A stretch of 64,000 nt of DNA from a virus (taxonomy: Duplodnaviria; Caudoviricetes): the IMG/VR virus record IMGVR_UViG_3300032296_004087, positions 1 through 64,000 of that record; one strand, written 5' to 3'. Position numbers and translations under genes: made by a program. The notes under the pieces were generated by a model, which made no database searches, was not told where the DNA came from, and saw nothing but the letters and a program-made list of their open reading frames with translations. Shown one piece after another: positions 15,698 to 64,000 of this stretch (its first letter is position 1; every line of letters starts with the position of its first letter).

Positions 15698-15719
15698 CTA
15701 ACTCCAAATTCAATTTCCC

Positions 15720-23677: not shown

Positions 23678-24880
23678 ATGGACCGAAAGATTGGCATTAT
23701 TGATGCAAACAATTTCTATGTAAGTTGTGAAAGGGTATTTAATCCAATTTCAATTGGGAGACCAACAGTTGTACTTTCAAACAACGATGGGTGTGTAATT
23801 GCTCGAAGTCAAGAAGCTAAAGATTTGGGTATTAAAATGGGGGAACCTTTTTTCCAAAGAAGAGACTTCATGGAAGAACATCGTTTTTGTGTTTACTCAT
23901 CAAATTACAATCTTTATGGTGATATGTCAGACCGAGTGATGGCGGTCATTAAAGAGTATTCTAAACAGGTTGAAGTTTATTCCATAGATGAGGCTTTTGT
24001 TGACTTCTCAAATATCCCCGATAAAGAATTAATACCAACTTTGGAACTAATTCAATATGAGGTCAAACAACGAGTAGGTATACCGGTATCTATTGGCGTA
24101 GGTCCCAACAAAACTTTAGCCAAATTAACTTCTCATATTGCCAAAAAACAACCTTCCTATAAAGGGATTTGTAGTTATTGGGAATTCAAAAACTTTAGGA
24201 ATGACTTGTACGAAATACCCATTGATGAAATTTGGGGAATAGGTAGAAAATGGTCAAAGAAATTCAAAGAGGGTGGTGTTGAATCGATAGGTCAATTTGT
24301 AATGTTGTCTGATACCATAGTAAAAAAAATGACTAATGTGAATGGGCTTAGGGCAAAAGTAGAAATACTAGGGATGTATTGTCATCCCGTGAAACCCATA
24401 CCTAAATTCAAAAGAAATATTGCCTCAGCTCGTTCATTTGGGCAAGATGTTGACCAACTTGATGACATCTCACAAGCTATGTACACTTACATTAAAAATG
24501 GTGTGAGAAAAATGGATGAAAGTGGCGCGGAAACAAATCGAGTAACTATTTTTGTGAGTGGTAACATACACAAGGGTCAAAAACATTCCTCGAGTAAACA
24601 ACTATATCTTCAACAACAAACAAAAGATGTTGATGAAATTTGGAGTCAAATATTCCCACATCTTCAAAACTTATTTGAAAGTGGTAAAAAGTATAAAAAG
24701 TGTGGGGTAATTTTTCATAATCTAATTCCTGATACTCAAACACAAACAACTTTATTTACCGAAGAGGTTAAAATTGTTCAACCACCTGTTTCATTAACAA
24801 ATAAATGGGAAATGAGACAAGATTTTAAAACTCAACATTATACAACTTCTTGGGAAGAAATTCCTGAAGTGTTTGTTTAG
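23678..24880 (+). CDS. umuC: Y-family DNA polymerase V catalytic subunit
   Basis: [44 protein letters not shown]-terminal YTTSW. Confidence 0.95.
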
Positions 24881-34936: not shown

Positions 34937-35382
34937 AAAATATCCTATTATCAATTGGTTTAATAATGTCCTTAGGTTTATTTGGACAAACTTGTTATAC
35001 TGTTAAAGGTATTGAAAATAAAAGTGAAAACCCTGATTTATCTTCAAAAAGGTTTACCTTTGGAGTTAAACAAATTGCTGAGGAACTTATCAGTGAAAAA
35101 TTAAGTTTGTGTGAAGAAGGAACCTCGGTTTTCGTTAATATCATTTCAATTGAAGCTCCTTCGGTTGGTATTAACATTGGTCCTTTTATGATTAAAAAGA
35201 AAATTACAGAGGTCAAAACTGAAGTGGTGATTGAGGGTGTCAAGTATGAAGGATTCGGAAGTGCTAAACTTGCGGTTAAAGCGGGTTTTGCTGAGCTCAG
35301 AGATGAAAATTTACCATTCGAAAAATCAGTGTTTTCATCTGCAATTAAAAAATCATTAGAAAACGCGATTGGAAAATTGTGA
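34933..35382 (+). CDS. secreted hypothetical protein
   Basis: Signal peptide; ends SVFSSAIKKSLE, similar to the CsgG-like C-terminal helix. Confidence 0.7.
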   Translation: MKNILLSIGLIMSLGLFGQTCYTVKGIENKSENPDLSSKRFTFGVKQIAEELISEKLSLCEEGTSVFVNIISIEAPSVGINIGPFMIKKKITEVKTEVVIEGVKYEGFGSAKLAVKAGFAELRDENLPFEKSVFSSAIKKSLENAIGKL

Positions 35383-36581
35383 TGAAAAAATTCGTTGCCA
35401 GTATTTTATTCTTAGTTCTTGTATTTCATTTGCAAGGACAAGAATTTACCTATTCGGGTAACATCTATGATGGGAATGAGGTAGGTGTGCAAGGTGTTGA
35501 AGTACAACTTTTAACAAAAAATATTTCAAATTATGAAATTACTAACCCAACATATTCTAATTTTGCCTTTGCGGGGGGTACCTCAGTAAACGGTTGTGAC
35601 GATTGTGTTCAAGGACCCTTCAATATTGGTTTTAATTTCACCTATTTTGGTAACACTTATACACAATTTTATGTTAGTTCGAATGGTTGGATAGGATTTT
35701 CACCCGGTCAAACAAGTGGTTATGTTGCCCAATTTTTACCAAATGGTAGTGCACCAAAGAATGCTATCTTAGCTGATTGGGAAGATTTGTTTCCTTCCTC
35801 AGGTCAAATGAATTATTATGTGACTGGAAGTTCCCCAAACAGAAAAATGGTTTTTAATTTTAACAGGGTACCATTTTATGATTGCAGGAGTATTTCAGTG
35901 ATTTGGCAAATAGTATTAAGTGAAACTACAAATGAAATTGACATTAACCTTCAATCAAAACCACAATGTGGTGGATATTCCGCCACTTTAGGTCTTACTA
36001 ATATCACAGGAACACAAGTTGTTCCTGTTGGTGGAAAAAACGCGGTGCAATGGTCCATAACTCAAGGTACTTCTTATAAGTTTACACCTTCAACTGTTCA
36101 AACAACATTCAATTATAATAGGTCGGTTTACACCTCAGCCGTTGGAAATTACAACTTCGGTTCAACAGGTTTAGATATTAACAACTATCAGTTTCAAATA
36201 GTAGTTCCCAACCCAACAACAACAAGTCCCTTATCGGTTACCGATGCTAAGTATGTGTCTGATTTAGTTTTAGGTGTTATTCCTATTACTTCCAAAGAAT
36301 ACTATAGAATGGACATTAACAATGACGGGAGAATTACTGTATCGGATGGTTTTCTTTTGTTTGGTGTAACAACAGGTCTAAAAAACAATACTATTCTTGC
36401 ACCTTCAGTAAGAATGTTCAATAGTGGTGAATGGACAACAATCAAAAACTCCACAAATAATCTTAAGTCTACAATTCTTGGTCAGTCTTCAATGACTATC
36501 TCGAACCCTGTAAGAGGTGGCTCAACTAACATCTATTTATTAACCACAGGATACTCAAATAAAAATAAATTAATTTATTGA
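35382..36581 (+). CDS. secreted dockerin-containing protein with beta-rich domain
   Basis: IGFNFTYFGNTYTQFYVSSNGWIGF (nidogen-like); MDINNDGRITVSD dockerin loop. Confidence 0.7.
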   Translation: MKKFVASILFLVLVFHLQGQEFTYSGNIYDGNEVGVQGVEVQLLTKNISNYEITNPTYSNFAFAGGTSVNGCDDCVQGPFNIGFNFTYFGNTYTQFYVSSNGWIGFSPGQTSGYVAQFLPNGSAPKNAILADWEDLFPSSGQMNYYVTGSSPNRKMVFNFNRVPFYDCRSISVIWQIVLSETTNEIDINLQSKPQCGGYSATLGLTNITGTQVVPVGGKNAVQWSITQGTSYKFTPSTVQTTFNYNRSVYTSAVGNYNFGSTGLDINNYQFQIVVPNPTTTSPLSVTDAKYVSDLVLGVIPITSKEYYRMDINNDGRITVSDGFLLFGVTTGLKNNTILAPSVRMFNSGEWTTIKNSTNNLKSTILGQSSMTISNPVRGGSTNIYLLTTGYSNKNKLIY

Positions 36582-36583
36582 AA

Positions 36584-37183
36584 ATGACTAAAATAAAATC
36601 ACTAATACTATTAAGCCTTGTAAGTTTAATTTTTATTTCCGCACAAGCTTTAAAAGATGTTAAAGTTAAAAACCAAATTTTTGAGGTAAATTACTCTCAA
36701 TCATTAGAACAACCACTTGAACTCACTTATCGTTCTATTAATAGACCTACAAATGTAAATCGTGGTTCTATGGATTTTAAAACAGAACCTAATGTTCATA
36801 CTTCAGACCATAACGATTATGCAAAAAATATTTGGGATAAAGGACACTTAGCTCCCGCAGCTACTTTCTCAGATAATATGGATAATCTCAAAACTACTTT
36901 CTCATATCTTAATTGTGCCTTACAAGACCAATACTTAAACAGGGGGGAATGGAGATTACTTGAAGAACAAGAAAGAAAATGGGATGACAAAGAAAATCTA
37001 ACAGTAAGGATAATATTGGATTTTGATAAGAGTTCTTTAGTTATCCCAACAGGTGCAATGGTACCTAAGGGTTTTACCAAACACATTTATTTCGAAACAT
37101 CAAAGAAGTGGGAATGTTATTACTTTCCAAATGAAAAACCAACAAAAAAATGGAATGAACACAAAATTAAGTGTGTTCACTAA
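36584..37183 (+). CDS. secreted DNA/RNA non-specific endonuclease (NucA-like)
   Basis: WDKGHLAPAA...TFSYLNCALQ...LNRGEWRLLE. Confidence 0.9.
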   Translation: MTKIKSLILLSLVSLIFISAQALKDVKVKNQIFEVNYSQSLEQPLELTYRSINRPTNVNRGSMDFKTEPNVHTSDHNDYAKNIWDKGHLAPAATFSDNMDNLKTTFSYLNCALQDQYLNRGEWRLLEEQERKWDDKENLTVRIILDFDKSSLVIPTGAMVPKGFTKHIYFETSKKWECYYFPNEKPTKKWNEHKIKCVH

Positions 37184-37788
37184 GAATTCTGAACTTCAAG
37201 TTTTAACCAATTATAAAACACATTACTGATTTCATCAGGTGAAGTGAGTTTCAAGTCTTTAATTTGGGATTTTAAGTATTCTATAGTTTTCTCAAATGTT
37301 GAGAGGGGCATTTGTTTGTAAAAACCATTTGGTATGATAATATTTTTTAAAAAACCATTTTTTTGTAATTCTCTTAATTTTCTTGTTGCAAATTCATCTG
37401 CAACCAATTCAATTTCTTTCATCAATTTTGCAGCTTCTCCAATGGACATTTCATTTGTGTAAAGTTTCAACATTTTTTCTTTACCATATTTTTTAAATTG
37501 ATATTGGTGGGCAAATTCATGAAATACAGAAAATAAGAACAAAGGTAGTGGTTGTTTAAAAACATTCTCACTAAAAATAATACCATTAATTAGTGCAACT
37601 GCAATACCCATTCGCAGTTTACCCAATTCAATTTTTTTTACACCTGATTTTTGTATATGATTTTCAATAACATCCCAAAACTCAATTATTTCGGGGTAAG
37701 ACGCAAAACTTTTTAATTTAAACTCATCTAACCCTTCAATTTGTTCTGTTAGCAACTTAAGTTGAGATTCATTTACAATAATTTTCAT
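37180..37788 (-). CDS. HExxH protein with MKIIVNESQ leader
   Basis: VFHEFAHQYQ...ELVADEFA. Confidence 0.7.
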   Translation of the reverse strand: MKIIVNESQLKLLTEQIEGLDEFKLKSFASYPEIIEFWDVIENHIQKSGVKKIELGKLRMGIAVALINGIIFSENVFKQPLPLFLFSVFHEFAHQYQFKKYGKEKMLKLYTNEMSIGEAAKLMKEIELVADEFATRKLRELQKNGFLKNIIIPNGFYKQMPLSTFEKTIEYLKSQIKDLKLTSPDEISNVFYNWLKLEVQNS

Positions 37789-37830: not shown

Positions 37831-38097
37831 ATGGGAAATAAAGTTAGAATCTCTGAAACCGATTTGGTTAACCTAATTGAGAAGGTAATTAAAGAAGAAC
37901 CGATGAAGGACATGAATAGTTTTGGATTTAACATGTTAGGTAAATCTGAAGAAGAAAAAAGTACAATCAGAAAACTTGATTACTTTGAAAGAATTTTTAT
38001 TCCACGGTTCCAAGAAATTAAAGATGTACATGGATTAGAGTTTGTAATTAAACTCTTAAATAATTTGGCGGTTACTTTTGATGAGGTTAAGGATTAA
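37831..38097 (+). CDS. hypothetical protein with ISETDL..IEKVIKEE leader
   Basis: ORF after TATTTAT 37818. Confidence 0.7.
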   Translation: MGNKVRISETDLVNLIEKVIKEEPMKDMNSFGFNMLGKSEEEKSTIRKLDYFERIFIPRFQEIKDVHGLEFVIKLLNNLAVTFDEVKD

Positions 38098-39485: not shown

Positions 39486-39995
39486 ATGAAAATAGTATTG
39501 AAGGAAACTCAATTTAATATTTTATTAGAAAAATATAAAATCGGGGATGAGGAAAGAGTGAAACTCATGGAAACCGATGATTTTCTGTTGGTAGTACCTT
39601 TAACTCACAATGCGACATGTAAATATGGTGCTAAAACAAAATGGTGTGTAACTGAAAAAGACCCCGATATGTTTGAAAGACATTATGACATGGGTAGTTT
39701 GGGGATATTAATTGTCAAAAATCCTGAAGTAATAGAGACCTTGGGTAATGAAAAATTTGCATTTTATGTGAATCGTCCCACCTCGATTGAAAACGCGAGA
39801 AACATCGAAAAGATTTTAGTTTATGATGATTCTGACCATTTTATTCCTTCACGGAGTTTTCTTAATTTTGCGGACAATTTAGGGTATCTTCCTCAAATCG
39901 AACAAGCAATGAAAATTTTTATAACATACGCCGATAAAAAATTTAACCCTGAAAATTCAGAAATGATAAGAAGGGGTTTACGAAATCCATTTTGA
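39486..39995 (+). CDS. hypothetical protein with MKIVLKETQF leader
   Basis: PLTHNATCKYGAKTKWC motif shared with 25669. Confidence 0.75.
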   Translation: MKIVLKETQFNILLEKYKIGDEERVKLMETDDFLLVVPLTHNATCKYGAKTKWCVTEKDPDMFERHYDMGSLGILIVKNPEVIETLGNEKFAFYVNRPTSIENARNIEKILVYDDSDHFIPSRSFLNFADNLGYLPQIEQAMKIFITYADKKFNPENSEMIRRGLRNPF

Positions 39996-39996
39996 T

Positions 39997-40518
39997 ATGA
40001 TTTTAAAAGAAGAGATTAAAAGAATCAAAGAAGTCATGGGACTCATTTCTGAACAAGACAAAAAAAACTTGGACAAGTTCATTATGGTTTATCCCAAAGG
40101 AATGGGTGTGGAATATGGTGAAGAGATTCCAACATCAGAGACTTATTACATTCCCTTGGGGATGGTCAAGGAAAATGAGATTTTCAAAGATGAGGATTAT
40201 TTTATGTCGAATGAAAATGTTCAGGATATGATTAAAAAATTGAGTAAGGGAAGTGAATTAGAACCCATTATGGTTATTCAACATCCTGAAAACGAAGATG
40301 TTTTCCTAATTATGGATGGACACCATAGAAAATTTTCTTATGAAAAGGCAAACAAGTTAGAGATTCCAGCCAGAATTGTAGAATACGAAAATATACTTTT
40401 AGCCGATGAAAACGGAGAAATTGTTTCGTCGTTAGATAAGGTTCGAAATGATATGGAGTTTCTTAGAAATTACTTTGTTACCCCTGACGGAACTGCAGAA
40501 TATTCAAAAGAAGATTAA
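39997..40518 (+). CDS. ParB/Srx-like protein with LKEEIKRIKEVMG leader
   Basis: LEPIMV...LIMDGHHR. Confidence 0.75.
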   Translation: MILKEEIKRIKEVMGLISEQDKKNLDKFIMVYPKGMGVEYGEEIPTSETYYIPLGMVKENEIFKDEDYFMSNENVQDMIKKLSKGSELEPIMVIQHPENEDVFLIMDGHHRKFSYEKANKLEIPARIVEYENILLADENGEIVSSLDKVRNDMEFLRNYFVTPDGTAEYSKED

Positions 40519-40910
40519 AGTCTTGCACCATCAAAATACCAATTAACAAATGGGTATTGACTTGCTAACTCTTGGATGTAAAGAAAAACTTCGTCTCTCA
40601 TTTCATCATCCCCTTCATCATCATTATCGTTTGCTGTAACATTTACATGAACGTCACCATTAATTGTGTGAACATTAAAAGTCATTGAGTTGTCTAAAAA
40701 GTACTCAAACTTTCGGTTTTGAAATCCATAAACTTCAATTTCATCTCCAAGAACCAACATTCTACCAATCTCAACAATATCTTGTTTCAGAAGAAAATCG
40801 GCAAACATTAAAGTGTTCTCTGATGGGTCCCCAACGATATTGTTTTCATCTGCAGAGTTAAATTGTTCGTGAATTGTTCTGTATTGTGACTCGGTAATGA
40901 TGAGTTTCAT
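40515..40910 (-). CDS. hypothetical protein with MKLIITESQY leader
   Basis: Paralogue of 47786-48208 (GDVHVNV, NWYFDG). Confidence 0.75.
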   Translation of the reverse strand: MKLIITESQYRTIHEQFNSADENNIVGDPSENTLMFADFLLKQDIVEIGRMLVLGDEIEVYGFQNRKFEYFLDNSMTFNVHTINGDVHVNVTANDNDDEGDDEMRDEVFLYIQELASQYPFVNWYFDGARL

Positions 40911-42579: not shown

Positions 42580-43860
42580 ATGACCAACCGTATTTACATC
42601 AAAAATAGTACTACTTCAGTACGAAATTTTGTGGAGAACTATTCAGAAGACACCACACTATTCCTTCCTTCAATCCAACGAGATTTTGTTTGGGGTAAAA
42701 AAAATAAAGATGGGTATTATGAAGCAATCCTTCGTAACATGACTCCTACACCAATCATTCTAGCTGACATTGAAACGGCAATGAACCATGCAAAACACAC
42801 AAATAACATGGAAGATTACCAAGTTTTCAAAGAATACTTTGAGGAGGGTAAACAATATATTTCAATAGATGGTGGTAACCGTACTAAGTACCTCAATGAA
42901 AGGTATGAGATGCAAAACGGTATGTTCAAAAACATGAGTGATGAACTCAAAACCTTTTTTCAACATGAAATTCAGGTTTCGGTTTATATGAACTTGACAT
43001 TCTTCGAAATGCATGAAATGGCGGGTAAGGTAAACATGGGAGTACCTTGGAATAAAGCAGACAAGCGTAATGTATTACCTGGTCCCATTGCCCAATATGT
43101 TCGACACCTAACCAACCAATACTCACCAATTTTCGGTGAATTCTTGACCATAAAGGAAATGCGTACCCGAAAGGTAGATGAAACTTTAGGTTATTACTTG
43201 GCTTACCATCAGACCAATCCCGATGGGTTGAAACAAGACTTACTCGATGCGCTGTACCTTCGAAACCACATTGACCACAAGGACCAATTCGAGATTGTGA
43301 TTTTCTTGTGGTCTAAAGTTATTACCATTATTTTAGATGGTAAGTATAAAGTAAAGAAGACTTTCTCGTTAAACCTTTTTATTTATCTCACTGAAATGTA
43401 TCGTGAGCATGGGTATAAACTAAACTTTGAGGTAATTGAGGACTTTGCAAAAAAATATGTGGAATTAGAGGAGACACGAATTATCGAAAAATTCGAGGTT
43501 GCCGATGTTACTTGTGCTGTGAATTGGAATGATTGGCAGCGTTACTCAAAAGACTTGTCAAAAAAATACTCCCGTATCTATAATGACATGTTACCATTCG
43601 TGGGAGATTACTTCATCAGTTTAGACCGTACCCGAGTTTACACCGAGGACGAAAAAATTGAGATGTTCGTTAAGACCAACGGTGTTGTTAATAAATTGGA
43701 CGGAACCAGTGAAAAGATTTCAGTCCTTCAAGCACTTAACGGAAAAGAATACCACGCGGACCACATCAAACCTTACTCTAAAGGGGGACAAACCACTGTA
43801 GAAAATGGTCAATTACTTCGGAAAAAGGACAACCTGAAAAAATCAAATAAGGTCTTTTAA
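42580..43860 (+). CDS. GmrSD-like protein (DUF262 plus HNH)
   Basis: PSIQRDFVW, IDGGNRT; C-terminal HADHIKPYSKGGQT..ENGQLL...N. Confidence 0.8.
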   Translation: MTNRIYIKNSTTSVRNFVENYSEDTTLFLPSIQRDFVWGKKNKDGYYEAILRNMTPTPIILADIETAMNHAKHTNNMEDYQVFKEYFEEGKQYISIDGGNRTKYLNERYEMQNGMFKNMSDELKTFFQHEIQVSVYMNLTFFEMHEMAGKVNMGVPWNKADKRNVLPGPIAQYVRHLTNQYSPIFGEFLTIKEMRTRKVDETLGYYLAYHQTNPDGLKQDLLDALYLRNHIDHKDQFEIVIFLWSKVITIILDGKYKVKKTFSLNLFIYLTEMYREHGYKLNFEVIEDFAKKYVELEETRIIEKFEVADVTCAVNWNDWQRYSKDLSKKYSRIYNDMLPFVGDYFISLDRTRVYTEDEKIEMFVKTNGVVNKLDGTSEKISVLQALNGKEYHADHIKPYSKGGQTTVENGQLLRKKDNLKKSNKVF

Positions 43861-47785: not shown

Positions 47786-48208
47786 TTAAATAGATTCTCC
47801 CTCAATATACCAATTGATGGAAGGGGTTCTTTTTGCGACTTCTCTAATGTAATTAAAAATTTGATTGAGATGGCGATAATAAAGTTTATAACCTTCATTT
47901 TCACCATCTCCTTCAACATTAACATGAATTTCTCCGTCAAAATCGTCAACCTTGAATATGATTTGATTATCCATGAAATAATCAACAAATAAATGTTCGG
48001 GGAAAGCAAAAATTGTGATTACATCATCGTAAACATTAATAAGTTCCAATTCAATTATTCCATTTTTTACGAGTAAATCTACAACAGTTAATGTTTCTGG
48101 GGATTGTGTTCCTATAAAAGGATTTTCATCATTTAAATTTTCTTCACCTTCAAAATCAAATTGTTCCTTTAGGTTTTGATATTGGGATTCTGTAATTAGG
48201 TATTTCAT
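47786..48208 (-). CDS. hypothetical protein with MKYLITESQY leader
   Basis: Paralogue of 40515-40910. Confidence 0.75.
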   Translation of the reverse strand: MKYLITESQYQNLKEQFDFEGEENLNDENPFIGTQSPETLTVVDLLVKNGIIELELINVYDDVITIFAFPEHLFVDYFMDNQIIFKVDDFDGEIHVNVEGDGENEGYKLYYRHLNQIFNYIREVAKRTPSINWYIEGESI

Positions 48209-55838: not shown

Positions 55839-56172
55839 ATCCAATCTGGCTCATCCCCATTATCGTATTGGTAATCCTCGGAGCACTTGTCATATACGAA
55901 AGAGGTCGCGACTGAACGGGGGGGAGGACACAGTAGCACCCTGTGTTAACCTCCCCTCCATATAGGGTCCCCCTATACCCCCTTAGAGGGGGGGGGTCCC
56001 CCGTATCCCCCCCTACTACCCCCTATTTTTGGTCACAGGGGGGGACAATACCGTCTGTGTAGCAAAAAAATTTTTGGTAAAAAAATTGATATTTTCCATA
56101 ACTCGACCCTTGTTTTTAAATGGGGGTCAAAATTAAAAAAAGAATTTTTGGAAAATTTTCCTATTTATTGAT

Positions 56173-56739
56173 ATGATAACTGAAAAGCAAAAAGAAATGT
56201 TGTTCAAGTTGTGGAGCAATCTTGGAGTGAGTTTGCAGTCACCCAAGTATCTTGATATTTCTTTTCCTAATCCTCAAGAGTTCAAATATTTGGTTGCACT
56301 ATTTTATGGGTTAAAAAGAGATAATCCAACCAATACTTTGATTGCTTTGGAACAAGATATCAAACAAAAAAGTAATGAGTTTTTATCCTTACCCGAAAAC
56401 TCTCCATGTGGGGGGAAACTAAGGATGGTGAAAAATAACGCTTTAGCCACTACATCGTATGGGGGAGTTACACAAAGAAATCAATTTGTTTCACTTCAAG
56501 GAACATTCGCATTTGAAATTCCTGAAGATTTTGTATGTGAGGACTTGGAGGATTATTCTGATATCGATGAGATATACCAAGTTGAGCAATGCTTCACCGA
56601 GGAATGTGTTCGTGATAGTATAAATAAGTTGAAAGTATTTTTGAAGGATAGATACGCACTCATCCTTAACGACATTCGAGCTTATTCAGAGGACAATTTT
56701 ATTGGTGACATTCAAATTGAAACAACAGTTGATTTCTAA
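56173..56739 (+). CDS. hypothetical protein (MITEKQ leader)
   Basis: After TATTTAT 56163. Confidence 0.7.
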   Translation: MITEKQKEMLFKLWSNLGVSLQSPKYLDISFPNPQEFKYLVALFYGLKRDNPTNTLIALEQDIKQKSNEFLSLPENSPCGGKLRMVKNNALATTSYGGVTQRNQFVSLQGTFAFEIPEDFVCEDLEDYSDIDEIYQVEQCFTEECVRDSINKLKVFLKDRYALILNDIRAYSEDNFIGDIQIETTVDF

Positions 56740-56825
56740 AACACGACCCTTGTTTTAAAAGGGGGGTCAATTTCGATTCCGGAATTTTGGGAAAAAATTC
56801 ATAAATTTGGGTCTATTTATATCTT

Positions 56826-57617
56826 ATGAAGATTGTCATCTCAGAGGGCCAGTACGAAAGGTTGATTGAAACCGAAGAGGAGGAGAAAGTTCTTCGTATA
56901 CCATCTTTGAAAATTTTCGATGATGATTGGTTTGTTTTACAAAAGTTTTTGGAGTTAAAGGGTAATCCACCTTATTCTATTGGGGGAGATTTGGACTTAT
57001 CAGAATTACCAATTCAATCATTGGGAAACCTTCAATCAGTTGGTGGGTTTTTGGATTTGAATGAAACACCAATTAAATCCCTTGGAAATCTTCAAACAGT
57101 TGGTGGAGATTTGGACTTGGAAGGAACACCAATTCAATCATTGGGAAACCTTGTATCAGTTGGTGGGACTTTGGATTTAAAAGGAACACCAATCAAATCT
57201 TTGGGAAACCTTAAATCCGTTGGCGGGGATTTATCTTTGGTAGGAAGAGCAATTGAATCTTTGGGAAACCTTGTATCAGTTGGTGGGGATTTATATTTGC
57301 AAGAAACACAAATCGAATCTTTAGAGAACCTACAATCAGTTGGGGGAAAGTTGGATTTGAATTGGTCAAAAATCCGTTCTTTGGGAAACCTTCAATCTGT
57401 TGGTGGGGGTTTGGATTTGGAAAAAACACCAATTCAATCTCTTGGAAACCTAACATCCGTTGGTGGGTATTTGGATTTGAGATATTCACGAATTAAATCC
57501 TTGGGAAACCTTCAATCAGTTGGTGAGTTTTTGGATTTGAGAAAAACACCACTATCTAAGATGTACACTAGAGAACAAATCCGAGAAACGGTAAATGTTG
57601 CGTATATCTATTTATAA
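56826..57617 (+). CDS. LRR protein, 10 x 20-aa repeats
   Basis: MKIVISEGQY leader; SVGGxLxLxxTPIxSLGNLx repeats. Confidence 0.9.
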   Translation: MKIVISEGQYERLIETEEEEKVLRIPSLKIFDDDWFVLQKFLELKGNPPYSIGGDLDLSELPIQSLGNLQSVGGFLDLNETPIKSLGNLQTVGGDLDLEGTPIQSLGNLVSVGGTLDLKGTPIKSLGNLKSVGGDLSLVGRAIESLGNLVSVGGDLYLQETQIESLENLQSVGGKLDLNWSKIRSLGNLQSVGGGLDLEKTPIQSLGNLTSVGGYLDLRYSRIKSLGNLQSVGEFLDLRKTPLSKMYTREQIRETVNVAYIYL

Positions 57618-57620
57618 GTT

Positions 57621-58052
57621 ATGAAGATTGTCATCTCAGAGAGCCAATATAACAAGTTGATTGAATCCGAAGAGGAGCAGAAAGTTCTTCGTATACCATC
57701 TTTGAAAATTTTCGATGATAATTGGTTTGTTTTACAAAAGTTTTTGGAGTTAAAAGGTAATCCAACTTATTCAGTTGGTGGGGATTTGGATTTGCAAGGA
57801 ACTCCAATCAAATCTCTTGGAAACCTTCAATTTGTTGGTGGGTATTTGTCTTTGCAAGACACATCAATTGAATCTCTCGGAAACCTAAAATCAGTTGGTG
57901 GGTATTTGAATTTGGCATATACATCAATCGAATCTCTTGGGAACCTTCAATATGTTGGTGGGGATTTGAGTTTGCATGGTACACCCTTATCGATTTACAC
58001 TAGAGAACAAATCCGAGAAATGATAAATGTCGAAGGTAGAATTTATAAATAA
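57621..58052 (+). CDS. LRR protein, 4 repeats
   Basis: Same leader, cap and repeat. Confidence 0.9.
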   Translation: MKIVISESQYNKLIESEEEQKVLRIPSLKIFDDNWFVLQKFLELKGNPTYSVGGDLDLQGTPIKSLGNLQFVGGYLSLQDTSIESLGNLKSVGGYLNLAYTSIESLGNLQYVGGDLSLHGTPLSIYTREQIREMINVEGRIYK

Positions 58053-58055
58053 ACC

Positions 58056-58610
58056 ATGAAGATTGTTATCTCAGAGAGCCAATACCAAAGGTTGATTGAA
58101 TCCGAAGAAGAACAGAAAGTTCTTCGTATACCATCTTTGAAAATTTTCGATGATGATTGGTATGCTTTACAAAAGTTTTTGGAGTTGAAAGGTAATCCAA
58201 CTTATTCAGTTGGTGGGGATTTGGATTTGCGTGATTTACCAATTAAATCCTTGGGAAATCTTAAATCCGTTGGTGGAGATTTATATTTGGAAAGAACACC
58301 AATTAAATCATTGGGAAACCTTCAATCCATTAATGGAGATTTGTATTTGGGAGGAACAATAATAAAATCTCTTGGAAACTTAACATATGTCGGTGGGTTT
58401 TTGGATTTGAGAAGAACACCAATTGAATCCTTGGGAAACCTTCAATCCGTTGGTGGAGATTTGGATTTGTTTGGGGCTCAAATTAAATCATTGGGAAACC
58501 TTCAATCCGTTGGCGGGTATTTGGATTTTAGAAGTACACCCTTATCTGATATGTACACTAAAGAACAAATCCTACAAATGGTAAATGTTGGTGATGATAT
58601 CTATTATTAA
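58056..58610 (+). CDS. LRR protein, 6 repeats
   Basis: Same leader, cap and repeat. Confidence 0.9.
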   Translation: MKIVISESQYQRLIESEEEQKVLRIPSLKIFDDDWYALQKFLELKGNPTYSVGGDLDLRDLPIKSLGNLKSVGGDLYLERTPIKSLGNLQSINGDLYLGGTIIKSLGNLTYVGGFLDLRRTPIESLGNLQSVGGDLDLFGAQIKSLGNLQSVGGYLDFRSTPLSDMYTKEQILQMVNVGDDIYY

Positions 58611-58613
58611 ATC

Positions 58614-59288
58614 ATGAAGATTGTTATCTCAGAGAGCCAATTTAACAGGTTGATTGAAACCGAAGAAGAGCAGAAAGTTCTTCGTATACCATCTTTGAAA
58701 ATTTTCGATGATGATTGGGATGTTTTGCAAAAGTTTTTGGAGTTGAAAGGTAATCCACCTTATTCCTTGGGTGGGGATTTGTTTTTGATGGGAACACCGG
58801 TTAAATCCTTGGGAAACCTTGTATCCGTTGATGGGTATTTATACTTGGAAGAAACACCAATTAAATCATTGGGGAACCTTCAATCTGTTGGTGGGTATTT
58901 GGATTTGAGAGGAACTCCAATCAAATCCTTGGGAAACTTAATATCAGTTGGTGGGGATTTGGTTATGGATGATACGCCAATTAAATCCTTGGGAAACCTT
59001 CAATTCGTTGGTAACAGGTTGTATATGCCAGGAACAAAAATAGATTCTTTGGGAAACCTTAAATCTGTTGGTGGGGATTTGTCCTTACAAGGAAGTGAAA
59101 TACAATCTTTAGGAAACTTAACAACAGTTGGTGGTGAGTTAAATTTAATCTCAACAAAAATCAATTCTCTTGGTAAATTAAATTTTGTTGGTAAAAATTT
59201 ATATTTACAACGAACACCTTTATCTAATGAGTACACTGAAGAACAAATCCGTAAAATGGTGGATGTTAAGGGTGAAATCTATTTATAA
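58614..59288 (+). CDS. LRR protein, 8 repeats
   Basis: Same leader, cap and repeat. Confidence 0.9.
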   Translation: MKIVISESQFNRLIETEEEQKVLRIPSLKIFDDDWDVLQKFLELKGNPPYSLGGDLFLMGTPVKSLGNLVSVDGYLYLEETPIKSLGNLQSVGGYLDLRGTPIKSLGNLISVGGDLVMDDTPIKSLGNLQFVGNRLYMPGTKIDSLGNLKSVGGDLSLQGSEIQSLGNLTTVGGELNLISTKINSLGKLNFVGKNLYLQRTPLSNEYTEEQIRKMVDVKGEIYL

Positions 59289-59291
59289 GTT

Positions 59292-59567
59292 ATGAAAATA
59301 GTAATAACTAAACCACAACTTTCCATTTTTTTGAGAAGAAGATTTTCTGCAGAGGACCTTTTATGGATTGTTAATGATGTTAAGGAAATGATTGACGAGG
59401 GTTATGGTGTGGAATCTGCGGTGTATGATGGAATTAGGGAATTTATTAAAAGTAAAAATTTTATTGACATAGATGAATTCGGTGATGAACAATCCTATTG
59501 GAATTCTTATTTGAAGTATGAGATTGCACTTGTTTCTTATGTGAAATCTGAGTTGGGTTTGGATTAA
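59292..59567 (+). CDS. hypothetical protein with MKIVITKPQL leader
   Basis: FLRRR motif shared with 62037-62354. Confidence 0.7.
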   Translation: MKIVITKPQLSIFLRRRFSAEDLLWIVNDVKEMIDEGYGVESAVYDGIREFIKSKNFIDIDEFGDEQSYWNSYLKYEIALVSYVKSELGLD

Positions 59568-59626
59568 AAAACATCTGCTAAGAATTACACTAAAGAGGAC
59601 ATGTTGGAAGTGATATCTATTTATAA
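59568..59626 (+). pseudogene. relic of an LRR gene 3' end
   Basis: ctaagaattacactaaagag...gttggaagtgatatctatttataa resembles the C-cap DNA of the LRR genes. Confidence 0.5.
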
Positions 59627-59629
59627 GTT

Positions 59630-60064
59630 ATGAAGATTGTTATCTCAGAAAGCCAATACCAAAGGTTGATTGAAGTCGAACAAGAGCAAAAAGTTCTTCA
59701 TATTCCTTCATTGAAAGTTTTTGGTTTGGATAGATTGGAAGCTTGGAACAACCTGCAAGAATTTCTGGAAAGAAAAGGTAATCCACCTTATTCTATTGGT
59801 GGTAATTTGGTCTTAGCAGAATTACCAATTGAATCTCTTGGAAACCTAAAATCAGTTGGTCAGGCTTTGGTTTTGTCAAATTCACTAATCAAATCTTTGG
59901 GTAATCTCGAATCCGTTGGTGATGATTTGTATTTAAACAGAACACCAATTCAATCTCTCGGAAATTTGAAATTCGTTGGTGGAGATTTGTATTTGAGAGG
60001 AACACCAATTTCCCAAAGTCCAATTACGGGTGTTAAAGTTGGGGGAGGAATTATGAGAGGGTAA
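59630..60064 (+). CDS. LRR protein, 4 repeats
   Basis: Same leader and repeat, more divergent caps. Confidence 0.9.
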   Translation: MKIVISESQYQRLIEVEQEQKVLHIPSLKVFGLDRLEAWNNLQEFLERKGNPPYSIGGNLVLAELPIESLGNLKSVGQALVLSNSLIKSLGNLESVGDDLYLNRTPIQSLGNLKFVGGDLYLRGTPISQSPITGVKVGGGIMRG

Positions 60065-60130
60065 ATTGATTACTCCCCCCTTTAGACTATCTCCCAACGA
60101 AAAAACAATTTATGGAAACTATTTAAGATT

Positions 60131-60748
60131 ATGGACTTTGACAAGATGAATAGGATACTCGATATGTTTATGAGGAGCATGTATGGTGTGGATGCCTATT
60201 TGACCCCTATTAGGAGTTTTCCTCCGATAGTTTATAGGGCAAACATCTTATTTTTTCCGTCCAAGTTTTTAAAAGGGAGTTCAGAGTATTCTGAAAAATA
60301 TTATAAATTTTTCAACAGAGATGAGAAGGAAATCGAAGATGATATTTTCAGAGCGTTTAAGTATTTGGGTGTCAATTCTGGAAATATTGATAGGGGTTCG
60401 ACATTAATACATATTTCTTCAGATATCCCTGAATATCTTAAAAACTATCAGAGGGAGTTGATAGTTCACATCAATGATTTTATCGAATCTGATACAATTA
60501 AAGATTATCGGTTATCCGAGGCAGTTTCTAATTTCAGGGTGGATAGTATTGACCCTGTGGTCGTTCTCACTGGTAGGGGAGATAGTCCATATATTAATTT
60601 TAAAATAATCTACGATTCGAAGAGTTTTTATAATTTGGCATCATTACTCAATAGTTGGGAAGTTAGAAATCCTTTGATGGATTATTTAAAAACAAAAATG
60701 AAGGTTGACCCACAAATTGATTTTTGGTTTGATGGTCGAGGAAGATAA
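60131..60748 (+). CDS. hypothetical protein
   Basis: 205 aa ORF. Confidence 0.7.
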   Translation: MDFDKMNRILDMFMRSMYGVDAYLTPIRSFPPIVYRANILFFPSKFLKGSSEYSEKYYKFFNRDEKEIEDDIFRAFKYLGVNSGNIDRGSTLIHISSDIPEYLKNYQRELIVHINDFIESDTIKDYRLSEAVSNFRVDSIDPVVVLTGRGDSPYINFKIIYDSKSFYNLASLLNSWEVRNPLMDYLKTKMKVDPQIDFWFDGRGR

Positions 60749-60773
60749 TGTAATTTTCACCCCCCCTTTTTAT

Positions 60774-61415
60774 ATGGACAATAAATACTTAGAACTACTT
60801 GAGGACCAATATGGGTTTATTATGCCAAACCTTTTGTTGGATAAGATTGACAATGTTGAATTAAGGGAAGTTTCTAACGGATTAAGGTTGTTTGTTGATA
60901 ATCAATCTTGGATGGGTATTAATTTAAAAGACTACCGTGAGGTGTATCAGTTTTTTTCCCATTATTTTTTGGCTGAGGGTAATGTCTTGTGCTCGGGTAT
61001 GGGACTTCTCATTCGTGAATCTTGGTTGTTATCGAAGGGTATTAACATTACTTTGGTTGAGGTTAATGATTCCATCATCGAATACCATAGAAAATATAAC
61101 TCCCCCCTTTTGGATTCGCTCACTTTAATTCATGGGGATATTCATAATCACCATGGGAGATACGATGTTGTTTTATTGGACCATTATGAGCATGAGAAAG
61201 AAGAGTGGATTATTGAAGATGTTAAGATGGTGATGAATAATATTGACTGTGATGTGGTATGGTTTTGGCCCTTAGAGAGGATATGTCATAATAATGGGGG
61301 GTGGGATTTTTACTGTAACTTAAGGAAGGAAATTCCTAAGTTACCTGATTTAAACAAGGAAGTTTTTGATTTATTCGTAAAATATTATTTCGTTGAATTA
61401 GAAAATTTGAAATGA
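60774..61415 (+). CDS. class I SAM-dependent methyltransferase-like protein
   Basis: VLCSGMG...ITLVE...IHGDI...YDVVLLDH. Confidence 0.65.
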   Translation: MDNKYLELLEDQYGFIMPNLLLDKIDNVELREVSNGLRLFVDNQSWMGINLKDYREVYQFFSHYFLAEGNVLCSGMGLLIRESWLLSKGINITLVEVNDSIIEYHRKYNSPLLDSLTLIHGDIHNHHGRYDVVLLDHYEHEKEEWIIEDVKMVMNNIDCDVVWFWPLERICHNNGGWDFYCNLRKEIPKLPDLNKEVFDLFVKYYFVELENLK

Positions 61416-62995: not shown

Positions 62996-63535
62996 ATGAA
63001 CCTGCAAGAGAACATTATTAGAATCAAACAAGTGATGGGTTTGAATGAGCAATACCCAGAAGGGATTGACCCTAAAGATTTGGAAGCCCAAGAAGTTCCC
63101 ATCGATAATGTGGAACCCGAGGAAACCCCCAATCAGGAGGAACCAAAGAATTCTGATGATTTTTCAAATAGTGTGGTTCCACAGATTGTTTGGAGAGCTG
63201 GACGAGTTGGTAGCAGTCCCAAAGGTGGTGGTATATGGTTTGGTGAAACAAAAAAAGATGTTGAAAACTTTGCCTGGTCCGTTAGGGATGAAAGAAGGGA
63301 AGGTTTGCCATACTATATCAACCTTCAAAACCCAAGGTATTATAAAAACTTCTGGAATGATTATTTGATTAAAGCTAAAGGAGCTGGACGAGATGTTCTT
63401 ATGAATGCTTTAATGAATGCTGGTTATGATGGTATTATCATTGATACTGATACTTGGAACGATACTGCAGATGAGTATGCCGTTACCTCAAAGCAATTTA
63501 TTGTATTTGACCCCAAAAATGTGAAACCAGCATGA
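62996..63535 (+). CDS. ADP-ribosyltransferase-like protein (ART-PolyVal type) with LQENIIRIKQVMG leader
   Basis: VWRAG...GIWFG...YINLQNP...GYDGIII...QFIVFDPKNVK. Confidence 0.6.
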   Translation: MNLQENIIRIKQVMGLNEQYPEGIDPKDLEAQEVPIDNVEPEETPNQEEPKNSDDFSNSVVPQIVWRAGRVGSSPKGGGIWFGETKKDVENFAWSVRDERREGLPYYINLQNPRYYKNFWNDYLIKAKGAGRDVLMNALMNAGYDGIIIDTDTWNDTADEYAVTSKQFIVFDPKNVKPA

Positions 63536-63537
63536 AA

Positions 63538-64000
63538 ATGAACCTGCAAGAGAACATTATTAGGATTAAGGAAGTAATGGGGATTCTTATCGAAACAAGG
63601 GAAGGTCTTTTGAATTATTTGAGACGACAACTCCCAAATTTTCCTGATTATGTAATAAAAGATTGGGTCTATAAATTTAATAAAGAAGGGTCTGCTGAAG
63701 GTATTCAAGATTGGATTGATAGTCAACTTAAAGACATGGAATGGGAATTACAAAAAGATTTCCCAATATCAATGAATATATTTACCGATAAAACAAAAAA
63801 AGAGTTAAAAAGTAGGATTAGGGGTAAAATAAGACAAGATGTTGGTAAAGATATCGAAAGACACGAAATACAAAAATCATTATTAAAAAGTAAGGGGATT
63901 TCCGAAGAACCAATTATTTTATTTAAAACCAAAGATGGTAAATATGAATTAGGTGAAGGGTGGCATAGAACAACACAAACATTTATTGAATTCCCTGACG
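63538..64000 (+). CDS. ParB-like protein with LQENIIRIKEVMG leader; runs off window end
   Basis: Hand-translated; EEPIILF...YELGEGWHR. Confidence 0.6.
   Translation, partial: MNLQENIIRIKEVMGILIETREGLLNYLRRQLPNFPDYVIKDWVYKFNKEGSAEGIQDWIDSQLKDMEWELQKDFPISMNIFTDKTKKELKSRIRGKIRQDVGKDIERHEIQKSLLKSKGISEEPIILFKTKDGKYELGEGWHRTTQTFIEFPD

What the first reader, a model, noticed from the sequence alone, without database searches (positions are those of the whole stretch)
56826..60064. Tandem array of five LRR genes with a fixed scaffold and hypervariable binding face
Seen: five paralogues with highly similar leader and N-cap DNA carry 10, 4, 6, 8 and 4 copies (last one partial) of an exact 60-nt, 20-aa unit SVGG-x-L-x-L-xx-TPI-x-SLGNL-x. 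Scaffold positions are largely conserved, while the x positions around LxL take diverse residues (D, F, Y, T, K, G; D, Y, S, N, V; RY, NW, QE, MG...). All five counts are even, hinting at two-repeat expansion steps. Known: in LRR solenoids these positions form the concave ligand-binding surface, as in lamprey VLRs and internalins. Inference: a recombination-diversified binder repertoire, perhaps packaged via the leader, that neutralises variable host defence proteins.
Basis: partly seen in the sequence, partly recalled or inferred. Interest (0 to 1): 0.85.

Follow-up and report, generated by a model that had tools for sequence, protein, structure and literature searches.

The report
Shuffled LRR binder genes in phage
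A large freshwater phage carries a row of five related genes for small leucine-rich-repeat proteins whose exposed repeat positions change fast and whose repeats and gene number differ between strains, which points to a fast-evolving set of binding proteins with an unknown target.

Summary
Five paralogous genes (56826-60064) encode a 20-aa leader, a 30-aa N-cap, 4-10 exact 20-aa units and a C-cap. A sixth, non-LRR gene and a decayed C-cap remnant also lie in the array.

The fold is an LRR solenoid, closest to Vibrio FlrP (E 4.9e-12; Z 18.4). Positions 5, 7, 9 and 10 are hypervariable. Their nonsynonymous rate exceeds the pooled synonymous rate (1.66, CI 1.40-1.97), against 0.24 for the scaffold.

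Relatives carry the same units in other orders. Lake metagenome contigs from two studies lack genes A-C through an in-register join between the N-caps of A and D. Another lacks E. The "even counts" hint fails.

The family is large and phage-borne, and near-complete relatives are T4-type. The leader is an exchangeable tag shared with many unrelated small genes. That resembles the T4 capsid-targeting sequence, but packaging and an anti-defence role remain untested. No reverse transcriptase was found, so a diversity-generating retroelement is unlikely.

The parts
56747..56763 (.). Short G+C-rich inverted repeat just after the upstream gene (56173-56739). It may be a transcript boundary before the array.
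   Evidence: The terminator-like scan listed it on the - strand. Sequence read. Function not tested.
56826..57617 (+). LRR gene A, 263 aa. Leader about aa 1-20, N-cap to aa 50. Nine full 20-aa units (56976-57515) plus a terminal unit (57516-57575) that merges into the C-cap.
   Evidence: AlphaFold2 single-sequence model: mean pLDDT 83.8, repeats about 90+. FlrP match E 4.9e-12 and Z 18.4.
57621..58052 (+). LRR gene B, 143 aa. Three full units (57771-57950) plus a terminal unit. Starts 3 nt after gene A.
   Evidence: Units B2-B4 recur 19-20/20 identical in metagenomic protein P0019, behind units of gene C.
58056..58610 (+). LRR gene C, 184 aa. Five full units (58206-58505) plus a terminal unit. 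Starts 3 nt after gene B.
   Evidence: AlphaFold2 with a 26-sequence alignment: mean pLDDT 92.2. The leader is a low-confidence helix (7-19). N-cap, solenoid and C-cap score above 90.
58614..59288 (+). LRR gene D, 224 aa. Seven full units (58764-59183) plus a terminal unit. Its N-cap is the right-hand end of the 1788-nt deletion seen in other strains.
   Evidence: joins 56931>58720 in run X2 and 56825>58614 in run X6.
59292..59567 (+). Gene F, 91 aa, not an LRR. It carries the same kind of leader (MKIVIT...) written in different synonymous codons. It belongs to a family that also neighbours, or is fused to, LRR genes elsewhere.
   Evidence: codons; no Pfam or PHROG family; P0131 is an F-like protein fused to leader + LRR.
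59568..59629 (+). Non-coding remnant of an LRR C-cap, with internal deletions and a frame break. It marks a lost or replaced paralogue.
   Evidence: translation of the three frames compared with the C-caps of genes A-D.
59630..60064 (+). LRR gene E, 144 aa, the most divergent paralogue. N-terminal part of 54 aa, three full units (59792-59971), a terminal unit, and no canonical C-cap.
   Evidence: Replaced by 98 other letters in a contig of run X7.

Best explanation
What it is. The array encodes a family of small, soluble, mildly acidic leucine-rich-repeat proteins. They have no signal peptide. The virus is a large T4-type phage from freshwater, probably infecting Bacteroidota.

Architecture. 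Each protein has four modules:
(i) an exchangeable N-terminal tag of about 13-20 aa;
(ii) a folded N-cap of about 30 aa;
(iii) n copies of a 20-aa LRR unit of the short 'bacterial' type;
(iv) a helical C-cap.

How it varies. The solenoid scaffold is held by purifying selection. Four positions flank the LxL strand (5, 7, 9, 10), and these are the canonical concave-face contact positions. They evolve faster than synonymous sites. New variants arise in two ways. Units recombine in register within and between paralogues. Unequal crossing-over between the nearly identical leader/N-cap DNA of neighbouring genes adds or removes whole genes.

Inferred function. The proteins bind variable protein targets inside the infected cell, either host defence or host takeover targets. 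Several paralogues would widen the range of targets covered. The N-terminal tag would be a separate sorting signal.

Shown here: the architecture, the fold class, the pattern of variation, the mosaics, and the copy-number differences between strains.

Inferred only: that the proteins bind, what they bind, where they act, and what the tag does.
For: Architecture and register.

Fold: AlphaFold2 pLDDT 83.8 and 92.2. Closest solved relative is Vibrio FlrP, E 4.9e-12. VIA-align gives Z 18.4, rmsd 2.7 over 173 residues, above other LRRs at Z 14-16.

Variation: the same variable positions appear in 437 units from 112 relatives.

Selection: among 446 distinct units, 154 disjoint close pairs were compared. 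Nonsynonymous change at positions 5/7/9/10 over the pooled synonymous rate is 1.66 (bootstrap CI 1.40-1.97). The scaffold gives 0.24 (0.19-0.30). The result holds for same-locus pairs (1.84) and different-locus pairs (1.45).

Mosaics: P0019 = C1 C2 B2 B3 B4. P0117 = D1 D2 B1.... A8-like units at 59/60 nt sit in a different order and copy number in L011 and L054.

Strain differences: contigs from two studies join the start of A to the start of D, with about zero depth between. Another contig replaces E.

Homogenised N-cap: synonymous difference 0.11-0.25 there, against about 0.43-0.5 in the units.

Recurrence: 23 of 50 viral loci hold two or more such genes. 1443 of 1507 candidates match at E<=1e-3. 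Atlas clusters are 100% viral.

Binder module used with enzymes: P0153 joins this LRR to ART-PolyVal at 42.9 bits (cut-off 31.2).

No hydrophobic signal-like segment is seen (by eye). pI 4.7-6.6, no Cys.
Against: - No target, no expression data and no host are known. No RNA run was listed.
- The window's proteins do not reach the curated cut-off of any Pfam LRR family. Only sub-threshold Recep_L_domain, LRR_EndoS and DUF6944 matches appear.
- The selection estimate comes from paralogous 60-nt units picked as close pairs. It uses an uncorrected counting method and ignores recombination inside units and possible constraint on synonymous sites. It shows an excess but is not a formal test.
- Positions 5 and 7 use a narrow alphabet (mostly D, N, Y, S, F). 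That could partly reflect structural preference.
- I placed the variable positions on the concave face from the repeat register and the strand pattern of the models, not from coordinates.
- The strain comparison rests on short-read contigs, which can mis-join repeats. The near-zero depth over genes A-C in X2 argues against that.
Confidence: 0.55

Rival explanations
1. Packaged cargo. The LRR proteins are loaded into the phage head through the N-terminal tag and injected with the DNA. There they neutralise host defence proteins at the very start of infection, like the T4 internal proteins with their capsid-targeting sequence. This is a sharper version of the best explanation, not a contradiction of it.
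For: - The tag is modular. The LRR body family (103 ORFs) carries leader class 1 in 61, class 3 in 17, class 2 in 3 and none in 22.
- 115 tagged ORFs outside the LRR family fall in 75 body families or singletons.
- Shuffled N-termini give about 0 matches and internal segments give 0 of 894.
- Gene F writes the tag in other codons, so the peptide is what is conserved.
- The tag is a detached, low-confidence helix.
- In the near-complete relative G002, 20 of 21 tagged ORFs (of 344) sit in one 30-kb island together with the LRR genes.
- 4 of 5 related records encode the T4 gp21-type head protease. 3 of 3 relatives searched (G001, G002, G004) encode Gp23 and gp32.
- G000 shares 56 of 177 ORFs with G002.
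- One tagged neighbour (62996-63535) resembles ART-PolyVal, at 26.9 bits, below the 31.2 cut-off.
- T-even internal proteins are described as diverse anti-restriction proteins that share only a capsid-targeting sequence (PMC3012670, passages). T4 Alt is packaged (PMC5512222, passages).
Against: - There are no virion data.
- No likeness to the T4 targeting sequence was seen or tested.
- Four or five different tag classes would all have to be recognised.
- The tagged island lies about 75 kb from the head genes in G002. Phage polyvalent proteins usually sit beside late virion genes.
- No T4-type late promoter motif lies within 80 nt upstream of gene A.
- An (L/I)-x-E site follows each tag, but such sites are expected by chance in this composition.
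- G000 itself shows no head genes, being a 49% fragment.
Confidence: 0.25
2. Conflict between phages. The LRR proteins bind proteins of competing phages or mobile elements (superinfection exclusion) rather than host defence proteins.
For: - The distant homologue in the temperate Edwardsiella phage Edno5 (gp47, the same 20-aa unit type, 42.6% identity over 86% of the query) lies in the early-left region, between the repressor genes and cIII. From memory, lambda keeps ral and sieB there.
- The window also encodes a protein with GmrSD_N (26.3 bits, below the 33.2 cut-off) and HNH (28.8 bits, above 21.4) matches, at 42580-43860.
- Diversifying selection fits any arms race.
Against: - The window's phage shows no sign of lysogeny.
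- Position in one distant phage is weak evidence.
- Fusions to ART-type effector domains fit attack on the host at least as well.
Confidence: 0.12
3. Virion-surface adhesins. The LRR proteins dock on the tail or capsid through the conserved N-terminal part and bind variable cell-surface or environmental ligands, broadening host range.
For: - LRR adhesins exist; internalins appear among the fold matches.
- Conserved N-terminus plus variable binding part is the layout of multi-receptor-binding-protein phages (from memory).
- Tandem, strain-variable arrays are typical of receptor-binding genes.
- The window starts with a collagen/Peptidase_S74 fibre gene.
Against: - The arrays lie among small accessory genes, far from the head genes in G002.
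- The same tags sit on an ART-like protein and on a PG_binding_1 protein. They also sit on many small proteins that match no family.
- The proteins are small monomer-sized solenoids with no trimerisation or fibre domains.
- In L025 the neighbours are a polymerase and a helicase, with only a weak adaptor-like hit.
Confidence: 0.1
4. No adaptive diversification. The units drift under relaxed constraint, and repeat and gene number fluctuate neutrally through replication slippage and recombination. Or the variation is written by a diversity-generating retroelement.
For: - Repeats are prone to slippage.
- The synonymous difference among the window's own units is already about 0.43, so old divergence alone gives high entropy.
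- Residues at positions 5 and 7 are mostly those encoded by NNY codons, which superficially recalls retroelement targets.
Against: - Among close unit pairs, the rate at positions 5/7/9/10 exceeds the synonymous rate with a CI above 1, while the scaffold gives 0.24.
- The same four positions vary family-wide.
- No reverse transcriptase was found in 0 of 3 records (G000, G001, G002; two near-complete). The control rang in 3 of 14 genomes.
- Differences between strains are mostly ordinary transitions, not changes specific to adenine.
- Positions 9 and 10 use E, Q, K and R freely.
Confidence: 0.08

Closest known systems
Vibrio FlrP, the LRR protein of the polar flagellar motor (PDB 8Z5U/8Z5W/8Z60)
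   Same: Same short 20-residue unit type, VxGxLxLxxTxIxxL.... Sequence match E 4.9e-12 over 146 residues. It is the best structural match, Z 18.4, rmsd 2.7, 26% identity. Described as a beta-solenoid LRR core with a short head and tail (bioRxiv 10.64898/2025.12.04.692373, passages).
   Different: FlrP is a bacterial periplasmic protein with a Sec signal peptide. It binds the flagellar rod and carries a positively charged surface. The phage proteins have no signal peptide, are acidic, have their own N- and C-caps and leader, and occur as variable tandem paralogues.
T4 internal proteins (IPI, IPII, IPIII) with their capsid-targeting sequence
   Same: In T4-type phages, a set of otherwise unrelated small proteins shares only a short N-terminal sequence. 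The set is highly diverse between related phages, and at least IPI* blocks a host restriction enzyme (PMC3012670, passages). Here, unrelated small genes share exchangeable N-terminal tags. Relatives also have the gp21-type protease and Gp23.
   Different: The T4 proteins contain no LRR. No sequence likeness of the tags was tested or seen. Packaging, cleavage and injection are all unshown here. Several tag classes exist here instead of one.
LRR binder repertoires of cells: lamprey VLRs, Listeria internalins, IpaH/SspH effectors
   Same: LRR solenoid with variable residues at the x positions of the strand segment. Internalin, IpaH and SspH LRR domains are among the fold matches at Z 13-14. Variation is created by exchange of whole repeat units.
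   Different: VLRs are assembled somatically from cassettes; here variation is germ-line, between strains. Internalins are secreted and wall-anchored. IpaH/SspH carry an E3 ligase domain. None of these features is present.
Multigene repeat-protein families of large eukaryotic viruses (entomopoxvirus LRR family; FNIP/LRR/ankyrin families of giant viruses)
   Same: Viral tandem expansions of repeat-protein paralogues, thought to follow host factors. Several appear as structural matches in BFVD (AMV005, AMV263, Klosneuvirus and others).
   Different: Those viruses infect eukaryotes, their units are longer, and they lack the leader tag. Sequence identity is only 12-20%.
Uncultured freshwater Caudovirales proteins annotated 'Leucine-rich repeat', and Edwardsiella phage Edno5 gp47
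   Same: Direct relatives. A0A6J7X691 is 44% identical with TM 0.67. Edno5 gp47 has the same 20-aa unit.
   Different: They are only database entries with automatic names. My searches found no study of their function or variation. Edno5 has one copy with nearly identical units, in a temperate lambdoid phage.
Polyvalent proteins of phages and conjugative elements (ART-PolyVal and others)
   Same: A relative (P0153, 850 aa) fuses this LRR type to ART-PolyVal and DUF6496. One tagged neighbour in the window has a sub-threshold ART-PolyVal match. Polyvalent proteins are predicted to be delivered with the DNA (PMC5512222, passages).
   Different: The window's LRR genes are single-module proteins. 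The words LRR and leucine-rich do not occur in the main text of that paper.

Membership tests
Leucine-rich repeat (LRR) superfamily | Tandem units of 20-30 residues with the core pattern LxxLxLxx(N/C/T)xL (pattern recalled from the LRR literature) | tested here: met
   The 20-aa unit reads G-G-x-L-x-L-x-x-T-P-I-x-S-L-G-N-L-x-S-V. L6, L8, T11, I13, L16 and L19 fit the short 'bacterial' 20-residue class. The first core position is G, with V2 beside it.
Leucine-rich repeat (LRR) superfamily | Curved solenoid fold with one turn per unit and a parallel beta-sheet | tested here: met
   This rests on predicted models only: pLDDT 83.8 and 92.2, with a regular strand pattern per unit. The best matches are all LRR proteins: FlrP at Z 18.4, others at Z 13-16.
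Leucine-rich repeat (LRR) superfamily | Match to a curated Pfam LRR model above its cut-off | tested here: not met
   Window proteins give only sub-threshold matches: Recep_L_domain 15-20 bits (cut-off 21.8), LRR_EndoS 21.4 (27.9), DUF6944 about 21 (32). Some relatives do pass: P0217 with LRR_1 at 42.5 against 20.6, and P0017 with PF12799, precomputed. The Pfam models are poorly tuned to this 20-aa type. The PDB sequence match to FlrP is significant.
FlrP-like flagellar LRR proteins | Sec signal peptide and periplasmic location on the flagellar rod | tested here: not met
   The N-terminus is a charged helix (MKIVISESQY...) with no hydrophobic signal segment. The gene is phage-borne. It shares the repeat type but is not the same protein.
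T4-type internal proteins with capsid-targeting sequence | A short N-terminal sequence shared by otherwise unrelated small proteins of one phage | tested here: met
   196 of 1161 ORFs in G000 plus 49 loci carry one of five tag classes. 115 of them lie outside the LRR family, in 75 body families or singletons. Controls gave about 0. The patterns were written after seeing the data.
T4-type internal proteins with capsid-targeting sequence | T4-type head assembly genes (gp21 protease, Gp23 capsid protein) in the same genome | tested here: inconclusive
   Peptidase_S77 is present in 4 of 5 related records. Gp23 is present in 3 of 3 relatives searched. Both are absent from G000, which is a 49% fragment matching only the accessory half of G002.
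T4-type internal proteins with capsid-targeting sequence | Presence in the virion, and removal of the tag by the head protease | not testable with these tools
   No isolate and no proteome. (L/I)-x-E motifs (site pattern recalled) follow the tags, but they are expected by chance in this composition.
Diversity-generating retroelement targets | A reverse transcriptase and a template repeat nearby; variation specific to adenines | tested here: not met
   RVT_1 was found in 0 of 3 records (G000, G001, G002), while the control rang in 3 of 14 genomes. Differences between strains are ordinary transitions and transversions. A template repeat was not searched for separately.
Polyvalent proteins | Several effector domains in one polypeptide | tested here: not met
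   The window's LRR proteins hold one module only. A relative, P0153, is a multi-domain protein with ART-PolyVal.

The most novel reading that the evidence does not exclude
A clade of large T4-type freshwater phages keeps an island of about twenty small effector genes. Each carries one of a few interchangeable N-terminal tags of 13-20 aa. The tags load the products into the head for injection. Within this island the LRR arrays act as a germ-line binder repertoire in the manner of an immune receptor family. Whole 20-aa units are shuffled between paralogues. Whole genes are gained and lost by crossing-over in the conserved N-cap DNA. Four contact positions per unit are under diversifying selection. 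Together these let the phage population keep pace with variable host defence proteins.
Probability: 0.2. Interest if true: 0.9.

Novelty: new variant of a known kind. Interest (0 to 1): 0.68.

Why it matters
LRR repertoires with hypervariable contact faces are a hallmark of cellular immune receptors and of bacterial effectors. Finding one on the phage side would add a new class of candidate counter-defence or host-takeover binders. Here it comes with unit shuffling, gene gain and loss between near-identical strains, and an excess of amino-acid change at the contact positions.

It would also provide a natural, compact 20-aa scaffold for engineering binders.

The exchangeable N-terminal tags, shared by dozens of unrelated small genes and clustered in one island of T4-type genomes, make an old question directly testable outside T4. 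That question is how phages choose which proteins to deliver with their DNA. If the tags turn out to mean something else, they still mark a large, unexplained set of accessory genes in abundant lake phages.

Tried and rejected
- No DNA match of 56000-61000 in cultured phages.
- PHROGs gave nothing for the LRR genes or gene F.
- The flanking genes 56173-56739 and 60131-60748 have no relatives in viral contigs, so synteny-anchored comparison failed there.
- The metagenome scan found no relative above 71% identity.
- Literature: motif strings of the tags found only irrelevant papers. Searches for phage LRR arrays or LRR anti-defence proteins found no study of this family (listings only).
- tblastn of a tagged non-LRR protein and of its first 30 aa against cultured phages gave no match.
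- Pfam on 10 more tagged proteins gave only one Annexin match.
- Promoters: the sigma-70 scan was at the shuffle level (17 found, 17.9 expected). A Bacteroidota-type TAnnTTTG box (pattern recalled) lies 24 nt before gene A, but the motif is barely enriched genome-wide (95 against 72). The T4-type late motif TATAAATA is enriched upstream of ORFs (9 against 1.9 in G000; 15 against 3.8 in G002), but none lies within 80 nt of gene A. Timing of expression therefore remains unknown.
- No RNA holder was listed among the runs.
- DNA-mimic idea: net charge is only -10 to 0, so it is unlikely.
- Two-unit expansion: rejected.
- Retroelement: rejected.
- Several low-support joints (side under 30) were ignored.
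- In L025 the neighbours of the LRR trio are a DNA polymerase and a helicase, with only a weak adaptor-like hit. That is no evidence of a structural module.
- The HExxH-like motif in P0209 was seen by eye only. Pfam found no family there.

Full report
WHAT IS THERE

The window is the first 64 kb of a 117,135-bp virus record that CheckV rates 49% complete. Between 56826 and 60064 lie five ORFs of 263, 143, 184, 224 and 144 aa. The first four are separated by only 3 nt.

Parsed from a conserved GNPxY motif, the five ORFs hold 10, 4, 6, 8 and 4 units of exactly 20 aa / 60 nt with no indel. That is 27 full units and 5 terminal units that run into a C-terminal cap. Tandem Repeats Finder reports period 60 with scores of 245-500.

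In the 27 full units, L6, S15, L16 and L19 never change. G3, G4, L8, I13, G17 and N18 almost never change. Entropy peaks at positions 5, 7, 9, 10, 12, 14 and 20.

The first 150 nt of genes A-D are 91-93% identical.

Two things were missed:
- A sixth gene (59292-59567, 91 aa) has no repeats but starts with the same kind of leader.
- A 62-nt decayed remnant of an LRR C-cap lies behind it (59568-59629).

One hint fails. The even unit counts do not reflect two-unit steps:
- Unit identity is 0.70 at lag 1, 0.72 at lag 2 and 0.705 between genes.
- 92 of 112 parsed relatives have five units.
- A rough count over other loci gives 38 even and 60 odd.

FOLD AND FAMILY

No Pfam LRR model reaches its cut-off on the window proteins. 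Only sub-threshold Recep_L_domain, LRR_EndoS and DUF6944 matches appear.

Other evidence for an LRR fold is strong:
- Gene A matches one solved protein by sequence, the Vibrio flagellar LRR protein FlrP (8Z5U), at E 4.9e-12.
- AlphaFold2 gives a confident solenoid. Gene A alone has mean pLDDT 83.8. Gene C with 26 relatives has 92.2.
- VIA-align puts FlrP first (Z 18.4, rmsd 2.7 A, 173 residues). It stands above a long list of other LRR proteins at Z 13-16, including Leptospira LRRs, SDS22, IpaH, SspH and internalin (Foldseek).
- FlrP is described as a beta-solenoid LRR with a Sec signal peptide that sits on the flagellar rod (bioRxiv 10.64898/2025.12.04.692373, passages).

The phage proteins share the repeat type with FlrP but not the biology. 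They have no signal peptide, are acidic (pI 4.7-5.0; gene E 6.6) and contain no cysteine.

Read against the short bacterial LRR consensus (recalled), the unit aligns as x5-L6-x7-L8-x9-x10-T11-x12-I13...L16..L19. Positions 5, 7, 9 and 10 are then the classical concave-face positions. The models place a strand at L6-x7 in every unit. I could not read coordinates, so this mapping is an inference from the repeat register.

HOW IT VARIES

The same positions vary across 437 units from 112 metagenomic relatives.

Among the window's own units the synonymous difference is already about 0.43, so a ratio computed there is saturated. I therefore pooled 446 distinct units from the window and all fetched loci and compared only close pairs (1-9 nt apart).

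In 154 disjoint pairs:
- The nonsynonymous rate at positions 5/7/9/10 is 1.66 times the pooled synonymous rate (bootstrap CI 1.40-1.97).
- The scaffold ratio is 0.24 (0.19-0.30).
- Same-locus pairs give 1.84 and different-locus pairs give 1.45.

This is an excess, not a formal test. The pairs are paralogous, were selected for closeness, and the method ignores recombination.

Recombination is visible directly:
- Protein P0019 is C1-C2-B2-B3-B4, with 17-20 of 20 residues identical per unit.
- P0117 is D1-D2-B1-...
- P0009 mixes A- and B-type units.
- In L011 and L054, units 59/60 nt identical to A8 sit in another order and copy number.

The leader/N-cap DNA is more uniform than the units. Its synonymous difference is 0.11-0.25, against 0.43-0.5 in the units. 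That fits gene conversion, and it provides the substrate for unequal crossing-over.

STRAINS

Public runs were laid on 56100-60800.
- A 7754-nt contig from a 2016 lake-water run (X2) follows the left flank into the N-cap of gene A. It then continues in the same register in gene D (56931>58720, skipping 1788 nt). Depth over A-C is close to zero.
- A contig from another study (X6) shows the same join (56825>58614).
- In a third study (X7) a contig replaces gene E by 98 other letters.
- Flanks in these contigs are about 97% identical to the window.

These are short-read contigs, so long reads are needed for certainty. The arrays are nonetheless clearly not invariant.

No reverse transcriptase is present in G000 or in two near-complete relatives. 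A diversity-generating retroelement therefore does not write the variation.

WHERE THE FAMILY LIVES

- The family is large. 1443 of 1507 candidates match at E<=1e-3. A search of cluster representatives gives 2429 matches, 111 of them below 1e-30.
- Atlas clusters are 100% viral.
- 49 viral loci encode relatives. 23 of 50 loci hold two or more copies, up to five in a row.
- Cultured phages have almost none. The exceptions are Edwardsiella phage Edno5 and an EBPR podovirus. In Edno5 the gene lies in the early-left region, between the repressor genes and cIII.
- Near-complete relatives are T4-type. Peptidase_S77 is found in 4 of 5 records. Gp23 and gp32 are found in 3 of 3 relatives searched.
- G000 shares 56 of 177 ORFs with one of them (G002). 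All hits fall in that genome's accessory half, which explains why G000 shows no head genes.
- A T9SS sorting domain in a window protein suggests a Bacteroidota host. This is an inference.

THE LEADER

The first 13-20 residues are not part of the fold. With an alignment they form a detached helix of low confidence, while the N-cap from residue 21 onward is modelled above pLDDT 90.

The same kind of tag heads many unrelated small genes. I defined five tag classes after inspecting the data.
- They mark 196 of 1161 ORFs in G000 plus 49 loci.
- 115 of these lie outside the LRR family, in 75 body families or singletons.
- Shuffled N-termini and internal segments give about none.

The tags are interchangeable:
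- LRR bodies carry class 1 in 61, class 3 in 17, class 2 in 3 and no recognised tag in 22 of 103 ORFs.
- Other body families also mix classes.
- Gene F spells the tag with different codons, so it is the peptide that is conserved.

In G002, 20 of the 21 tagged ORFs (of 344) lie in one 30-kb island that includes the LRR genes.

Cargo with a recognisable domain is rare:
- a sub-threshold ART-PolyVal match at 62996-63535;
- PG_binding_1 at 14209-14598;
- an Annexin match in G002.

In relatives this LRR is fused to ART-PolyVal (P0153, above the cut-off) and to DUF7663.

The nearest precedent is T4. Its internal proteins are a diverse, fast-changing set of anti-restriction proteins that share only a capsid-targeting sequence (PMC3012670, passages). 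Its Alt ADP-ribosyltransferase is packaged and injected (PMC5512222, passages). The parallel is suggestive. It is weakened by the distance of the island from the head genes, by the several tag classes, and by the complete lack of virion data.

VERDICT

The array is a real, fast-evolving, recombination-shuffled family of LRR proteins in a T4-type freshwater phage. Its contact positions are under an excess of amino-acid change, and gene content differs between strains.

That the proteins are binders is a strong inference from the fold and the pattern of variation. What they bind is unknown, as is whether the tag sends them into the virion.

My literature searches found no study of this family. 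Only automatic 'Leucine-rich repeat' labels exist in databases. I rate it a new variant of a known kind and of clear interest.

Noticed in passing
window 37180-37788(-), 39486-39995, 40515-40910(-), 47786-48208(-), 9556-9966, 37831-38097, 62996-63535, 63532-64000; G000 64055-64648, 65703-65996, 72110-72307, 72584-73462, 83007-83297: 18 of 177 ORFs of the genome begin with one of five short N-terminal tag classes. Examples are MKIIITESQ..., ..RLTESDL.RIV.., ..IKRILREE.., MNLQENI.RIK..MG and ..ITEEEK..I. The proteins behind the tags are otherwise unrelated. The tags swap between body families in related phages.
   Followed up: partly
G002 (L082-L083), 165.7-194.4 kb of a 294,914-bp record: In a 98%-complete T4-type relative, 20 of the 21 tagged ORFs lie in one 30-kb island, mostly on one strand, about 75 kb from the gp21/gp23 head genes.
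   Followed up: partly
window 62996-63535: A tagged 179-aa protein has a sub-threshold match to ART-PolyVal, the ADP-ribosyltransferase of polyvalent proteins (E 9.3e-6; 26.9 bits against a cut-off of 31.2).
   Followed up: no
window 42580-43860: A phage-encoded 426-aa protein has a GmrSD_N match (below its cut-off) and an HNH endonuclease match. It looks like a type IV restriction-like nuclease carried by the phage itself.
   Followed up: no
L014 3563-7595 (- strand): A separate tandem array of about twenty very small ORFs (52-81 aa) that all begin MKTK.KLGK.V.. and are rich in S/V/N. This is another expanded paralogue family, next to the LRR array of a 282-kb relative.
   Followed up: no
window 59292-59567; proteins P0131 and L034 8803-9075: Gene F belongs to a small family (tag followed by ..LRRR..) that recurs beside LRR genes. 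In P0131 it is fused in frame to a second tag plus an LRR protein.
   Followed up: partly
window 30486-32381 and 33509-37183: One protein carries cohesin, dockerin and T9SS C-terminal sorting domains. It is followed by a run of ORFs with lipoprotein-like or secretion-like N-termini. These are host-like secreted proteins carried by the phage and hint at a Bacteroidota host.
   Followed up: no
window 5318-6472, 23678-24880, 15624-15698: Auxiliary genes: a glutamine synthetase-like protein, a UmuC/ImpB-type translesion polymerase, and a tRNA-Met gene.
   Followed up: no
G000 and G002, whole records: The T4-type late promoter motif TATAAATA is enriched within 80 nt upstream of ORFs: 9 against 1.9 expected in G000, and 15 against 3.8 in G002. 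It does not occur within 80 nt before gene A.
   Followed up: partly
proteins P0127-P0130 and P0154 (1148-6498 aa): The same 20-aa unit type occurs many times in giant multi-domain proteins from metagenomes. One of them has a PI3/PI4-kinase domain and another has a methyltransferase domain, so the unit type is not confined to phages.
   Followed up: no
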